From IMG/VR virus record IMGVR_UViG_3300042923_001106, positions 1-64,000 of that record: a stretch of 64,000 nt of DNA. One strand, given 5' to 3'. Origin of the DNA: a virus. The translations under genes and the position numbers were made by a program. This document shows, in pieces, positions 11,556 through 64,000 of the stretch. The number at the start of each line of letters is the position of its first letter. Positions within the stretch are counted from its first letter, which is position 1. The notes under the pieces are model-generated. The model was given only the letters and a program-made list of their open reading frames with translations. It was not told the origin of the DNA and did no database searches.

Positions 11556-11582
11556 AAAAAAAGAAGTGGTATATTTACCACT
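11556..11582 (-). terminator. Terminator-like hairpin ending the RsfA-fusion cassette
   Basis: AGTGGTA-TATT-TACCACT stem with an A-run on + (U-run on -). Confidence 0.6.
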
Positions 11583-11615
11583 CCTAGCATTTTAGTATGT
11601 TTTTTATATTTGCCG

Positions 11616-12617
11616 TCATTTTGTCCGCTCTAAATTTCCGTTCTTATCCATTCTGAATGCCGTTTTTATCTCTGACGAAACTTTTATATCGATAGCGGAA
11701 GCAATGATTCCTTTAGTTTGAATCAGCTCATCTGAAATCTTTTCTTTTTCACTTTTTATTTTTTTGAGTGCCGATTGTAGCGCTGCATTTTTAAATTGCA
11801 GAGTTTCAATTTTTTCTTCCATAAGTGTATTTTTTTCATTTTGCAAACCTTCGATGCTCTTTTTCATCTCTTCAAACTCTACTAATACTGAATTCAACAT
11901 CATTTCCTGCCAACTTGGTTTTTTGTATCCTTTAAAATCAGTAAGTTCTTCGCTGTTTTCACTGTTGTCGTGTATATTTCTTTTATTTCCTTCGATTTTT
12001 CTCTTAAGTTCTTCATTTTGAATTTTAGGTTTAATTGATGATGTATATCTGGAGCGACATGCATTTTGAGATTTTCCTAATTTTGCTGATGCAATTGCAC
12101 AAGCAGAATTTAATGTTCCACCACGATTTACTTCGTTAATAATGATGTCGTACAATATCAGATCTTTATTGTCCCAACTGCTACCAGTTACAGCTTTTGA
12201 GCGATGTTGTTGAGTTGAGTACTGTTCAACATTCAGGAGATATGTACGAACTTGTTTAGCAATTTCGCTCTTTTGAAGAAGCATTCCGATCCGTAGTACA
12301 CACCGGCGATTGAGTAAAGTTAATGACGGTATCTTTTTTAACTCAGTGACATTTTGTAACAAAGTCGACTTTATGTGTTTAAGCTCATTTCCTTTAACTA
12401 CCTTTAATCCATCTTGTACTAATTCGTCATTATTACGTACAATAATCTGCCTTATAGTGACGTCTTCGACAAGGTAGTATTCCGAAATCATCTTTGTGGT
12501 CAAATGTTCGTCATCAGGAAGCATTGTCAAAATTTTGACTCTATCTAAAGTCTCAACTCGATTAATATAAGCATTTCTCAACTGCACATCTTCAACGAAG
12601 TTTTCTTGTCTTAGCAT
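11616..12617 (-). CDS. Phage antirepressor-like DNA-binding domain fused to an RsfA-family sporulation regulator domain
   Basis: N-half resembles phage ORF6N/antirepressor-like proteins; C-half has W..KDLILY...GGT..A....KLG....ACRSRY (RsfA/YlbO Myb-like motif), a coiled coil and the RsfA terminal motif FRMDKNGNLER. Confidence 0.75.
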   Translation of the reverse strand: MLRQENFVEDVQLRNAYINRVETLDRVKILTMLPDDEHLTTKMISEYYLVEDVTIRQIIVRNNDELVQDGLKVVKGNELKHIKSTLLQNVTELKKIPSLTLLNRRCVLRIGMLLQKSEIAKQVRTYLLNVEQYSTQQHRSKAVTGSSWDNKDLILYDIIINEVNRGGTLNSACAIASAKLGKSQNACRSRYTSSIKPKIQNEELKRKIEGNKRNIHDNSENSEELTDFKGYKKPSWQEMMLNSVLVEFEEMKKSIEGLQNEKNTLMEEKIETLQFKNAALQSALKKIKSEKEKISDELIQTKGIIASAIDIKVSSEIKTAFRMDKNGNLERTK

Positions 12618-12866
12618 ACTCTCAACTCCTCTTCAATCTGATATTCGATGAATGACAATAAGTCATTCAATAAATCATCGGGATTATATGAGAAGAACTT
12701 GTCTAGGAATTCGTTGAGATTGCTCGAGTTCAAGTAATACTGTGCAACTATGTATTCGTCAGATTCCTTCGTGTGAAAGTACTCTACAGTCTAGAAAGCC
12801 CTGTGTAGATAAGTGGTGATTTTCAATGATATGCTGCCACTTTAAGTATTCTTGATCTTTGGTCAT
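12611..12866 (-). pseudogene. Probable frameshifted ~85-aa ORF
   Basis: ATG 12866 with GGAGG RBS stops after 35 aa; the +1 frame continues (VEYFHTKESDEYIVAQ...EEELRVC*) to a stop overlapping the next ATG; break near 12785. Confidence 0.45.
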
Positions 12867-12912: not shown

Positions 12913-12990
12913 AGTATACAATCAAGTGCTAGCACCGTCAAGCAATATCAATCAAAATCCAGATGGATTTTTGCTTTTACTTGCTAGCAC
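12913..12990. promoter_or_regulatory. Divergent promoter region with two GTGCTAGCAC-type operators
   Basis: Minus-strand TTGACG(12941-36)-17bp-TATACT(12918-13); perfect palindrome GTGCTAGCAC at 12926-35 in its spacer; second copy TTGCTAGCAC at 12981-90. Confidence 0.7.
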
Positions 12991-13039
12991 CTTATAGTAT
13001 TATATAGTGAGATATCCTTTAAGGAGGAGTTTTCATCTT

Positions 13040-13429
13040 ATGATTCCAGAGTCAAGTAAGCGAGTACGTTTTGCCAATTCACTAAATAAAGACTTGTACG
13101 AAAGACTTCAAGAACACTCGAAATCCACAAACATTCCTATATCTAAAATCCTTGATCAAGCAGTTGAAGAGTACTTCGTCAAAAGTAAAATTACAATCAA
13201 TGATGATCTATACAGTTACCTTTGCGTTTATTTTGGCACAAAGGGATTGGATATCGACGAAGAGATAGAGAACATTCTTGTTAAATTTGTTGATGGACAG
13301 CAGAGACTAGTTGAAGATATTATCCATTCTGTGACCCGACAACAACGGGGGAAAAGGGTTAACATTGAGAAACGGGACGCTGTTGCCGAAGAATATTCTA
13401 GTTATAATCCAAACGAGAAGTCAGATTAA
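13040..13429 (+). CDS. Ribbon-helix-helix DNA-binding protein
   Basis: KRVRFANSLNKDLYERLQEHSKSTNIPISKILDQAVEEY RHH pattern; ATG 13040 after AAGGAGG (track start 13007). Confidence 0.75.
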   Translation: MIPESSKRVRFANSLNKDLYERLQEHSKSTNIPISKILDQAVEEYFVKSKITINDDLYSYLCVYFGTKGLDIDEEIENILVKFVDGQQRLVEDIIHSVTRQQRGKRVNIEKRDAVAEEYSSYNPNEKSD

Positions 13430-13490: not shown

Positions 13491-13643
13491 TTAATTACTT
13501 TCAGGCTTTCCTTCTTGAATTGGGTTAAGCAGGATGTACTTAATTTGAACTAGTGGTTCTGCTTCATTCCCTTTTAATTCAACTCTGTCTAGGAAGATGA
13601 GGATATTGTCTCTAACTTGATCCGAAATTTCATATCTGGCCAT
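13491..13643 (-). CDS. Hypothetical 50-aa protein
   Basis: Read manually: MARYEISDQVRDNILIFLDRVELKGNEAEPLVQIKYILLNPIQEGKPESN; AGGGAGG RBS. Confidence 0.55.
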   Translation of the reverse strand: MARYEISDQVRDNILIFLDRVELKGNEAEPLVQIKYILLNPIQEGKPESN

Positions 13644-63743: not shown

Positions 63744-63775
63744 AAAAAACCATGCTGCTTAAACGGCATGGTTTT
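63744..63775. terminator. Bidirectional terminator
   Basis: AAAACCATGC...GCATGGTTTT between convergent genes. Confidence 0.7.
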
Positions 63776-64000
63776 GGTTTGTTCCATCGAGAATCCCAAG
63801 TTTACGGGCATTTTCAATTATTTTGAGCATGTTTTTAAAATCTTCATTTATCTTGATTTCCGGCTTATTTTCTAATTTTATCGTTAGTTCTTCATTTTCT
63901 TTTCTCAATTTATCGATTACATGCTCCATCAATTGTAAGGCTTCAAGAATGTCTGAGATGGGGATGAAATTGTTTTCAGTTACTGTTGGAATAGGATCTG
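63759..64000 (-). CDS. 3' part of an RsfA/YlbO-family regulator-like protein (runs off the right edge)
   Basis: Read manually: ...PISDILEALQLME...KLRKENEEL...EDFKNMLKIIENARKLGILDGTNQNHAV*; matches the YlbO/RsfA C-terminal pattern (I.DVI..L, coiled coil, EDY..L..IM.RARK). Confidence 0.6.
   Translation of the reverse strand, partial: DPIPTVTENNFIPISDILEALQLMEHVIDKLRKENEELTIKLENKPEIKINEDFKNMLKIIENARKLGILDGTNQNHAV

What the first reader, a model, noticed from the sequence alone, without database searches (positions are those of the whole stretch)
11616..12617. Phage antirepressor-like domain fused to an RsfA-type sporulation regulator
SEEN: residues ~145-200 read SSWDNKDLILYDIIINEVNRGGTLNSACAIASAKLGKSQNACRSRY, followed by a coiled coil and a terminal AFRMDKNGNLERTK. 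KNOWN (recalled): Bacillus RsfA, a prespore (sigmaF-regulon) regulator, begins DAW..[40 protein letters not shown] and ends PVFKMDRNGNLEK. The N-terminal ~130 aa look like a phage ORF6N/antirepressor-type DNA-binding domain. INFERENCE: a chimeric regulator that may let the prophage tune host sporulation, or tie induction to forespore state. The gene has its own promoter and terminator inside the tail operon.
Basis: partly seen in the sequence, partly recalled or inferred. Interest (0 to 1): 0.72.

Follow-up and report, generated by a model that had tools for sequence, protein, structure and literature searches.

The report
Phage regulator with RsfA-like half
A large SPbeta-like phage of spore-forming bacteria encodes a DNA-binding protein that joins a phage "antirepressor-type" head to a complete but very divergent copy of the RsfA/GerR sporulation regulators, under its own small repressor; the fusion is real and rare, but nothing yet shows that it acts on sporulation.

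Summary
Window 11616..12617 (-) is an intact 333-aa ORF.

- **C-terminal half (141-333).** It is homologous end to end to the RsfA/GerR/YlbO family. It has a Myb-like helix-turn-helix, a coiled coil and the family's C-terminal F-x-M-D-x-N-G-N-L-E tail.
  - A profile of this half retrieves bona fide RsfA-family proteins at E 1e-16 to 1e-9 among 1.84 billion sequences.
  - The Myb part and the tail each match on their own (hhalign 96.5% and 97.3%; crossed controls under 0.5%).
  - It scores far below the curated family cut-off (28.6 vs 126.45 bits) and sits in a separate, phage-linked clade.
- **N-terminal domain (1-135).** It is the DNA-binding head found on KilAC antirepressors and HNH nucleases.
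- **Gene unit.** The gene lies in a self-contained unit: a divergent RHH_3 repressor gene, two operator-overlapped sigmaA-type promoters, a small acidic ORF (frameshifted only in this record), the regulator, and a terminator. In at least five of eight related loci, including the window's, the unit lies between the YomM-like recombinase and the tape measure of SPbeta-like phages.

My best reading is an RHH-gated, dimeric, two-headed transcription regulator, laid out like P22 mnt/arc-ant. The sporulation link is only inferred. RsfA-like regulators in phages are already known; this fusion was not found described. The scan noted the same architecture on another genome (e1-5686148), not followed up.

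The parts
11616..12617 (-). 333-aa fused regulator gene; the stop codon is included.
   Evidence: ORF list. 98% and 83% identical full-length relatives P0001 and P0002. About 14 clusters at 50% identity share the architecture.
12213..12617 (-). Residues 1-135: N-terminal DNA-binding domain of the antirepressor-N / ORF6N / KilA-N-like class, with a winged-helix core at about residues 35-120.
   Evidence: Shared with KilAC antirepressors and HNH fusions. PHROG 2379 E 1.5e-4; ORF6N E 0.037. Model m77c6e467ae60 has pLDDT 73.5. BFVD hits include 'KilA-N DNA-binding domain' proteins at E 6e-4 to 1e-3. PDB matches are weak only, Z<=5.4.
12018..12182 (-). Residues 146-200: single Myb-like helix-turn-helix of RsfA type.
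   Evidence: hhalign against canonical RsfA Myb parts: Prob 96.5%, E 8e-10; crossed control 0.1%. Invariant W, D, L, T and R columns in A4. Weak B-Myb match in the PDB, E 0.11.
11658..11912 (-). Residues 236-320: long helix, a predicted coiled coil and likely dimerisation region.
   Evidence: AF2 model m1ff07cbad4d1: one helix over 236-320, with block pLDDT 79-94. It aligns with the coiled-coil part of RsfA-family proteins.
11625..11657 (-). Residues 321-331, FRMDKNGNLER: the RsfA-family C-terminal tail motif, predicted to form a beta-hairpin.
   Evidence: Identical motif in bona fide RsfA-family proteins. 89 of 114 canonical members carry it, as do 11 of the 17 listed fused-family proteins. 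hhalign of the tail part: Prob 97.3%, E 2e-11.
11562..11585 (-). Intrinsic-terminator-like hairpin (10-bp stem plus T run) between the regulator and the tape-measure gene.
12611..12866 (-). Small acidic upstream ORF, 85 aa and pI about 4.3 in relatives. Its stop overlaps the regulator's start (ATGCTAA). Here it is broken by a private 2-bp deletion near 12787/12788.
   Evidence: Alignments with L007 and L069. Intact 85-aa gene in L069 and L007. Non-homologous but equally acidic ORFs occupy the same position in L003, L009 and L010. No Pfam family.
12913..12941 (-). SigmaA-type promoter TTGACG-17-TATACT for the small ORF and regulator. The palindrome GTGCTAGCAC (12926-12935) lies in its spacer.
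12981..13008 (+). Divergent promoter TTGCTA-16-TATAGT for the RHH gene. The second palindrome copy TTGCTAGCAC (12981-12990) lies on its -35 element.
   Evidence: TGCTAGCA occurs only at these two places in the 183-kb record.
13040..13429 (+). Divergent RHH_3 (ribbon-helix-helix) gene, 129 aa, the likely repressor of both promoters. Ribosome-binding site AAGGAGGAG at about 13021-13029.
   Evidence: PF12651 E 2.3e-12. Called as 129 aa in the 98% relative L069. The same RHH_3 subfamily lies divergently upstream in L003, L005, L009 and L010.

Best explanation
**What it is (shown).** The gene encodes a basic (pI 9.1) protein with two DNA-binding domains.
- An antirepressor-N/ORF6N-like winged-helix domain (residues 1-135).
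- A complete, highly divergent RsfA/GerR-type module fused behind it: a Myb-like HTH (146-200), a linker, a coiled coil of about 85 residues (236-320), and the family's F-x-M-D-x-N-G-N-L-E tail (321-331).

**Where it sits (shown).** It is the second cistron of a self-contained unit in a variable island of an SPbeta-like phage. The unit has a sigmaA-type promoter, a small acidic ORF, the regulator and an intrinsic terminator. An RHH_3 gene faces it. Each of the two back-to-back promoters carries one copy of a palindrome that occurs nowhere else in the 183-kb genome.

**How it most likely works (inferred).**
- The RHH protein binds both palindromes, represses itself and keeps the operon off in the lysogen.
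- When RHH is absent or titrated, on entry into a naive cell or after induction, the operon fires.
- The regulator then dimerises through its coiled coil and binds DNA through its two kinds of heads as a transcription regulator.
- The acidic first-cistron protein may modulate it.

The layout parallels P22 mnt / arc-ant, with the KilAC effector part of an Ant replaced by an RsfA-like module. Whether the targets are phage genes or host sporulation genes is open.
For: - **ORF and motifs:**
- **RsfA homology:** TIGR02894, GerR and YlbO hits. The C-half profile finds bona fide RsfA-family proteins end to end, E 1e-16 to 1e-9 in 1.84e9 sequences, and these score 171-228 bits on TIGR02894. Alignment A4. 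Separate hhalign matches of the Myb and tail parts with negative crossed controls. End-to-end BLASTP at 24-28% identity.
- **N-domain:** shared with KilAC and HNH proteins. Viral structure matches to KilA-N, antirepressor and MSV199 proteins.
- **Coiled coil:**
- **Unit:** RHH_3 E 2.3e-12. Promoters, terminator and palindromes. The palindrome is unique to this intergenic region.
- **Conserved neighbourhood:** the same RHH_3 subfamily lies divergently upstream in 5 of 8 distinct fused loci and in none of the roughly 50 loci that carry the N-domain alone. In L007 both the RHH-like gene and the palindrome are different (AGTGTGCACACT), which fits repressor and operator changing together.
- **Small ORFs:** acidic, with overlapping stop and start.
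Against: - No binding, expression or phenotype data exist.
- The promoter, operator and terminator calls are consensus matches only.
- The N-domain's Pfam and PDB support is sub-threshold (ORF6N 14.7 against 27.8 bits; best PDB Z 5.4).
- The first cistron is not RHH/Arc-like, and it is frameshifted in this record. Another note reports a terminase frameshift, so the record may be a decaying prophage or carry assembly errors.
- L006 has no divergent RHH, and L008's divergent gene has no family hit.
- The regulator may act through protein contacts rather than DNA.
Confidence: 0.6

Rival explanations
1. The protein acts on the host sporulation programme. It would bind RsfA/GerR target promoters, or pair with host RsfA/GerR or their partner through the shared coiled coil and tail. 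The phage would thereby block or steer sporulation, or couple its own development to a sporulation compartment.
For: - Whole-module homology to RsfA/GerR, including the strictly conserved tail, despite about 20-28% identity elsewhere.
- The fused form was seen only in spore-forming Bacillales and their SPbeta-like phages.
- The same phage carries a second, bona fide RsfA-family gene.
- SPbeta-type prophages excise during sporulation (PMC4191935).
- Phage RsfA-like genes have been proposed to act on sporulation (PMC12484599).
Against: - Only a sigmaA-like promoter is present, with no sporulation-sigma consensus upstream.
- The recognition helix differs from canonical RsfA, so shared DNA sites are unlikely.
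- The module is a long-diverged separate clade.
- A dedicated RHH repressor points to phage-internal control.
- There are no functional data.
Confidence: 0.2
2. A true antirepressor. The protein inactivates the phage's, or a competitor phage's, lysogeny repressor by protein contact, as P22 Ant does. The RsfA-like half would serve only as an oligomerisation and contact surface.
For: - The N-domain is homologous to that of annotated Ant/KilAC proteins.
- The layout is mnt/arc-ant-like, with a divergent RHH.
Against: - The KilAC/ANT domain, the part that defines these antirepressors, is absent.
- The same N-domain is also fused to HNH nucleases, which suggests a DNA-targeting head rather than a repressor-binding part.
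Confidence: 0.08
3. A local regulator of accessory (toxin or defence) genes that travel in the same variable islands.
For: - Neighbours in relatives: Zeta toxin (L003), a PemK-domain protein (L009), GmrSD (L006) and NYN (L005).
- In Paenibacillus oleatilyticus the fused gene abuts an RsfA-like/PemK pair.
Against: - In the window, L007 and L069 the unit is followed directly by the tape-measure gene, with no such cargo.
- The neighbours are different in every locus, as expected for a hotspot rather than an operon.
Confidence: 0.07
4. A DNA-anchoring or segregation adaptor (winged helix plus coiled coil, like RacA, pSK1 Par or TubY), for example to place phage DNA in the forespore.
For: - Weak structural matches of the N-domain core to the pSK1 Par DNA-binding domain (Z 5.2, rmsd 2.2 over 53 residues), ParA N-termini and RacA (Z 4.4).
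- A long coiled coil.
Against: - Z values of this size are common for small helical domains (notes).
- There is no partner NTPase gene or centromere-like repeat array nearby.
- The operator palindrome occurs only twice.
Confidence: 0.05

Closest known systems
RsfA family of Bacillales sporulation regulators (RsfA, GerR/YlbO; TIGR02894, NF010535, NF010534)
   Same: The same three-part module in the same order: a single Myb-like HTH, a coiled coil, and the C-terminal F-x-M-D-x-N-G-N-L-E tail. The alignment runs end to end.
   Different: - It scores 28.6 bits against a cut-off of 126.45.
- It is only about 20-28% identical.
- The third aromatic residue of the Myb repeat is Y rather than W, and the recognition helix differs.
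- It is fused behind a 140-aa phage domain.
- It forms a separate clade.
- It is phage-borne, with a sigmaA-type promoter under an RHH operator instead of sigmaF/sigmaE control (GerR and RsfA background: PMC517825).
Stand-alone RsfA-like regulators of Bacillus phages (Basilisk gp22; the four copies in phage G)
   Same: Phage-encoded Myb-type regulators related to RsfA (PMC6145125, PMC12484599, PMC7824862). This phage also has one, a 176-aa protein scoring 137 bits.
   Different: - Those proteins are unfused and closer to the cellular family.
- Basilisk gp22 matches this C-half only at tblastn E 0.6.
- Neither the antirepressor-type head nor an RHH-gated unit is described for them in the passages I read.
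Phage antirepressors and Bro/KilA-N/ORF6N-type regulators built by domain shuffling (e.g. Alicyclobacillus phage MMB025 Ant; Paenibacillus larvae phage N-domain-HNH proteins)
   Same: The same N-terminal domain, 40-52% identical. It is one more case of the shuffling of DNA-binding heads among phage regulators. I cite Iyer, Koonin and Aravind 2002 from the reference list of PMC6145125; I did not read it here.
   Different: The C-terminal partner is an RsfA-like module instead of KilAC or HNH.
P22 immI region (mnt, divergent from arc-ant); the comparison rests on my own knowledge
   Same: A divergent RHH repressor gene. Two back-to-back promoters carry operators. A small first cistron is followed by the antirepressor-type gene.
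   Different: - The first cistron is an acidic protein with no family hit, not an RHH like Arc.
- The effector lacks KilAC.
- The host is Gram-positive and the phage is SPbeta-like.
Geobacillus virus E3 GP177 (389 aa, annotated hypothetical)
   Same: The same N-domain plus Myb-like region (33% identity over residues 14-191, E 2e-29). It has a degenerate tail, KIDKFGNVEK. It is the only member found in an isolated phage.
   Different: It is more divergent: the C-half profile gives E 2e-5 and no NCBIfam RsfA hit. It lies in an early-gene region with no RHH beside it.

Membership tests
RsfA family (TIGR02894; RsfA/GerR/YlbO) | Single Myb-like HTH with the conserved W...D.L...G(S/T)T...(R/K)T..AC..R(W) pattern | tested here: met
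   hhalign of the Myb part alone against 114 canonical members: Prob 96.5%, E 8e-10. Invariant W, D, L, T and R columns. It is divergent: the last aromatic residue is Y.
RsfA family (TIGR02894; RsfA/GerR/YlbO) | Central coiled-coil / leucine-zipper-like region | tested here: met
   AF2 predicts a single helix over 236-320 with pLDDT 79-94. It aligns to the corresponding part of family members.
RsfA family (TIGR02894; RsfA/GerR/YlbO) | C-terminal F-(K/R)-M-D-x-N-G-N-L-E tail, present in 89 of 114 canonical members sampled | tested here: met
   FRMDKNGNLER at residues 321-331. hhalign of the tail part: Prob 97.3%, E 2e-11.
RsfA family (TIGR02894; RsfA/GerR/YlbO) | Score above the curated cut-off of the family model | tested here: not met
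   28.6 bits against 126.45. GerR 24 against 257; YlbO 19.2 against 345. The best fused relative reaches 51.9 bits.
RsfA family (TIGR02894; RsfA/GerR/YlbO) | Stand-alone protein of about 160-260 aa with the Myb domain at the N-terminus | tested here: not met
   The module starts at about residue 141, behind an unrelated domain. In the quick tree the fused modules form one clade apart from 51 canonical members (SH-aLRT 99).
RsfA family (TIGR02894; RsfA/GerR/YlbO) | Expression from a sporulation sigma factor promoter (sigmaF for rsfA, sigmaE for gerR) | tested here: inconclusive
   Only a sigmaA-like promoter was found. No match to sigmaE/F/G/K patterns written from memory. There are no expression data.
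RsfA family (TIGR02894; RsfA/GerR/YlbO) | Regulates sporulation or germination genes | not testable with these tools
   This needs genetics or ChIP.
Phage antirepressor (Ant, KilAC/ANT PF03374) | N-terminal DNA-binding head shared with Ant-type proteins | tested here: met
   P0010, a KilAC protein, at E 9.7e-30 and 52% identity over 41% of the query. MMB025 'anti-repressor Ant' at 52%. N-domain HMM at E 2.9e-55.
Phage antirepressor (Ant, KilAC/ANT PF03374) | KilAC/ANT C-terminal domain | tested here: not met
   No PF03374 hit at E<=1. The C-half is RsfA-like instead.
ORF6N domain (PF10543) | Match above Pfam's gathering score | tested here: not met
   14.7 bits against 27.8, E 0.037, residues 39-89. 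P0058 reaches 19.3 bits. Viral fold matches to KilA-N-annotated proteins at E 6e-4 to 1e-3 keep a distant relationship possible.
P22 immI-type unit (mnt / arc-ant) | Divergent RHH repressor gene, with operators on both promoters | tested here: met
   RHH_3 E 2.3e-12. Palindromes overlap both promoter-like sites and occur only there. Binding itself was not tested.
P22 immI-type unit (mnt / arc-ant) | The first cistron is a small RHH (Arc-like) | tested here: not met
   The 85-aa acidic ORF has no Pfam hit and no Atlas hit.

The most novel reading that the evidence does not exclude
The strictly conserved RsfA/GerR tail and coiled coil let this phage protein plug into the partner or oligomer used by the host's compartment-specific sporulation regulators, while its extra phage head brings that complex to new DNA sites. 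An SPbeta-like phage could then rewire forespore or mother-cell transcription, or sense which compartment it is in and couple excision, induction or entrapment in spores to it.
Probability: 0.15. Interest if true: 0.75.

Novelty: new variant of a known kind. Interest (0 to 1): 0.45.

Why it matters
- **A handle on the RsfA family.** RsfA and GerR are among the least understood sporulation regulators. The role of their conserved C-terminal tail does not seem to be described in the papers I could search. A phage lineage has kept the Myb fold, the coiled coil and exactly that tail through deep divergence, while swapping the recognition helix and adding a second DNA-binding head. This marks the tail as the functionally constrained part and gives a natural variant for dissecting it.
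- **Phage biology.** The gene adds a rare, RHH-gated regulatory unit to the variable islands of SPbeta-like phages, a group whose life cycle is already tied to sporulation. One member, E3 GP177, sits in an isolated phage and could be tested.
- **If it only regulates phage genes.** It is then one more example of domain shuffling among phage regulators, of moderate interest.

Tried and rejected
- **Foldseek of the full-length model against the PDB:** nothing at E<=1e-3, only weak MarR-like winged helices.
- **PDB profile searches:** only B-Myb at E 0.11, and spurious hits with the wider alignment.
- **N-domain against 48,161 PDB representatives:** best Z 5.4, too weak to name a fold family.
- **Megablast of window 1-25000 against 50,697 phage records:** no match.
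- **tblastn of the C-half against phages:** only Basilisk-type gp22 at E 0.6.
- **IMG/VR scan with the C-half:** only two further contigs, both already known. The wider alignment A2 was too divergent to seed a scan.
- **Coiled-coil bias as the source of the RsfA hit:** rejected, because the Myb and tail parts match separately and the crossed controls fail.
- **Recent duplication of the phage's own 176-aa RsfA-like gene:** rejected. It is 22% identical over 51 aa and lies on the other side of the tree.
- **Artefactual fusion through a frameshift:** rejected, because about 14 clusters share the architecture.
- **Extra operator copies elsewhere in the genome:** none.
- **Sporulation-sigma promoter patterns:** none.
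- **Protein Atlas:** gave nothing new for the regulator, and no usable hit for the small ORF.
- **Tools and limits:** One family scan failed on a wrong reference and was repeated. The Wu and Errington 2000 paper (PMC94291) is not held.
Full report
**1. The observation**

Window 11616..12617 on the minus strand is one intact 333-aa ORF (sequence). In alignment A4, P0034 carries [15 protein letters not shown]...GSTQLNAF...[12 protein letters not shown] and ends FKMDKNGNLERIAE.

**2. Is the C-terminal half really RsfA-like?**

- Pfam gives only sub-threshold hits: Myb_DNA-bind_6 at E 0.045 and ORF6N at E 0.037.
- NCBIfam gives TIGR02894 (RsfA family) at E 1.3e-6, covering residues 149-300 against profile positions 9-143 of 161. 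It also gives GerR at 2.9e-5, and YlbO at 9e-4 over residues 150-331. All lie far below the curated cut-offs.
- Eight of ten relatives hit TIGR02894, the best at 1e-9. Further fused relatives reach 51.9 bits.
- I cut residues 141-333 and the matching parts of seven relatives into alignment A2 and searched 1.84 billion representatives. This gave 645 proteins at E<=1e-3.
- After the protein's own family, the best hits are proteins of 160-260 aa, aligned from about their residue 4 to their last residue at E 1e-16 to 1e-9. Six that I checked score 171-228 bits on TIGR02894, whose cut-off is 126.45.
- Alignment A4 shows the same order of parts in both groups: a Myb-like HTH, a variable linker, a coiled coil, a short conserved helix, and the tail F-(K/R)-M-D-x-N-G-N-L-E.
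- To exclude coiled-coil bias, I compared the parts separately with a canonical set collected independently, namely homologs of the phage's own bona fide RsfA-like gene.
  - Myb part against Myb part: hhalign Prob 96.5%, E 8e-10.
  - Tail against tail: Prob 97.3%, E 2e-11.
  - The crossed comparisons gave 0.1% and 0.4%.
- Pairwise BLASTP is end to end at 24-28% identity.

**3. How far from the family is it?**

- It fails the curated cut-off.
- The last aromatic residue of the Myb repeat is Y.
- The predicted recognition helix reads NACRSRY where the family has AACGFRW.
- In a quick maximum-likelihood tree of 67 modules, all 14 fused modules fall on one side of a long branch (SH-aLRT 99), together with two short stand-alone forms (P0028, P0029). 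The other side holds 51 canonical members, including the phage's own 176-aa copy.
- That tree is a quick search with long branches and midpoint rooting.

I therefore call the C-half a divergent homolog and a separate subfamily, not a member by the curated definition.

**4. The N-terminal domain**

- Residues 1-135 are 40-52% identical to the N-termini of annotated KilAC antirepressors. Examples are Alicyclobacillus proteins and phage MMB025 'Ant'. They also match proteins that carry an HNH nuclease behind the same head, in Paenibacillus larvae phages, actinobacterial phages and many metagenome proteins.
- PHROG 2379 'anti-repressor' matches at E 1.5e-4.
- A model of the domain alone (pLDDT 73.5) has a helix-turn-helix with two strands.
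- Its best viral structure matches are:
  - a 389-aa protein that is probably E3 GP177 (E 7e-8);
  - metagenomic 'KilA-N DNA-binding domain' proteins (E 6e-4 to 1e-3);
  - MSV199, Bro-N and antirepressor entries.
- PDB matches are weak (Z<=5.4). They are winged-helix DNA binders of the MerR/Xis/Par/RacA kind.
- 'Antirepressor-type DNA-binding head' is therefore fair. ORF6N membership is not shown.
- The phage genome has only this one copy of the head and two RsfA-like modules.

**5. The family and where it lives**

- Full-length relatives are few. About 14 clusters at 50% identity combine the head with the RsfA-like half.
- Among one genome for each of 185,579 species, the fusion was confirmed only in Paenibacillus oleatilyticus, P. 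cremeus and Halalkalibacter oceani. An NCBI name adds Heyndrickxia oleronia.
- IMG/VR holds two further contigs.
- Geobacillus virus E3 GP177, annotated hypothetical, is a divergent member in an isolated phage.
- The loci carry SPbeta-type structural genes: YomU/V/W/X/O/N, YonB, YomG and YomF Pfam families.
- In at least five of eight distinct fused loci the gene lies between the YomM-like tyrosine recombinase and the tape measure, as it does here. These are the window (with L069), L003, L007, L009 and L010 (window genes).
- In L005 it follows the YomG-like tail gene. In L006 it lies among small early genes.
- The unit is thus a mobile piece of the variable islands of these phages.

**6. The transcription unit**

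- Downstream of the gene, a 10-bp hairpin with a T run (11585-11562) precedes the ribosome-binding site of the 1727-aa tape-measure gene.
- Upstream lies TTGACG-17-TATACT at 12941-12913.
- Between that promoter and the gene lies a small ORF whose stop overlaps the regulator's start. It is 85 aa in the 98% relative L069 and in L007. In this record it is broken by a private 2-bp deletion near 12787/12788.
- ORFs at the same position in L003, L009 and L010 are unrelated in sequence but all acidic (pI 4.05-4.35). The regulator itself has pI 9.1.
- A 129-aa RHH_3 gene faces the unit (13040..13429, PF12651 E 2.3e-12).
- The 100-bp spacer holds two back-to-back promoter-like sites, each overlapped by one copy of the palindrome (G/T)TGCTAGCAC inside a 30-nt inverted repeat.
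- TGCTAGCA occurs nowhere else in the 183-kb record.
- The same RHH_3 subfamily lies divergently upstream in 5 of 8 distinct fused loci, and in none of the roughly 50 loci that carry the head alone.
- In L007 the divergent gene is a different, weakly TraY-like protein, and the palindrome in the promoter spacer is different too.

**7. Mechanism**

- Shown:
  - the domain architecture;
  - the homology of both halves;
  - the conserved neighbourhood;
  - the private operator-like palindromes.
- Inferred:
  - RHH represses both promoters;
  - the operon fires when RHH is absent or titrated;
  - the regulator dimerises through the helix at 236-320 (pLDDT about 90) and binds DNA through two kinds of heads.

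The layout is that of P22 mnt / arc-ant (my own knowledge), with an RsfA-like module in place of KilAC.

For a sporulation role I find only circumstantial support:

- homology to the sporulation regulators;
- restriction to spore formers;
- a second, bona fide RsfA-family gene in the same phage (137 bits);
- the known link of SPbeta prophages with sporulation (PMC4191935);
- earlier proposals for phage RsfA-like genes (PMC12484599).

Against it stand the sigmaA-type promoter, the lack of a sporulation-sigma consensus (using patterns from memory), the changed recognition helix and the deep divergence.

**8. Novelty**

RsfA-like regulators in Bacillus phages are published: Basilisk gp22 in PMC6145125, phage G in PMC12484599 and PMC7824862. 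Shuffling of antirepressor-type heads is a known theme. I found no description of this fusion or of its RHH-gated unit, but the library is incomplete. An earlier first-stage note of this scan records the same architecture on another genome (e1-5686148), not followed up.

I rate it a new variant of a known kind, with interest 0.45.

**9. Limits**

- There are no functional data.
- The host was not verified here. Earlier notes say Paenibacillus, and the nearest named relatives of the second RsfA-like gene are Paenibacillus at 41-44% identity.
- The look-up of encoding contigs closed.
- The tree is a quick one.

Noticed in passing
window 63759..64000, continuing to 64289 of the record (L001:1474-2004, minus strand); partner at L001:2155-2568, plus strand: A second, bona fide RsfA-family gene (176 aa, TIGR02894 137 bits, no C-terminal tail motif) is divergently paired with a PemK/MazF-like toxin gene (PF02452 E 5.7e-30). 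The same divergent pair lies directly downstream of the fused gene in Paenibacillus oleatilyticus SM69: a 164-aa RsfA-like gene (L011:5162-5656, minus strand) and a 130-aa PemK gene (L011:5880-6272, plus strand). RsfA-like proteins may regulate or counteract MazF-type toxins in these prophages.
   Followed up: partly
window 12611..12866 (-), break near 12787/12788: The 85-aa acidic ORF upstream of the regulator is frameshifted by a 2-bp deletion found only in this record. It is intact in the 98% relative L069 and in L007.
   Followed up: yes
L009:12487-13245; L003:11305-12036; L006:10969-12000: The islands that hold the fused gene in relatives also carry toxin or defence-type cargo: a 252-aa PemK-domain protein behind an IS605 TnpB, a Zeta toxin, and a GmrSD_N protein. 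The recombinase to tape-measure gap therefore looks like an accessory-gene hotspot of SPbeta-like phages.
   Followed up: no
L066:2956-4125 (Geobacillus virus E3 GP177): This 389-aa 'hypothetical protein' of an isolated 141-kb phage has the same N-domain plus a Myb-like region and a degenerate tail (KIDKFGNVEK). It is a cultivable entry point for testing the family.
   Followed up: partly
window 13491..13643 (-): A 50-aa ORF between the RHH gene and the tyrosine recombinase is conserved in L007 and L069 (MAKYEISDQVRDN...). It has no family hit.
   Followed up: no
P0042 (258 aa; not in the window): One relative has the N-domain, the coiled coil and the FKMDKNGNLER tail but apparently no Myb region. 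The coiled coil and tail therefore seem to be a separable unit.
   Followed up: no
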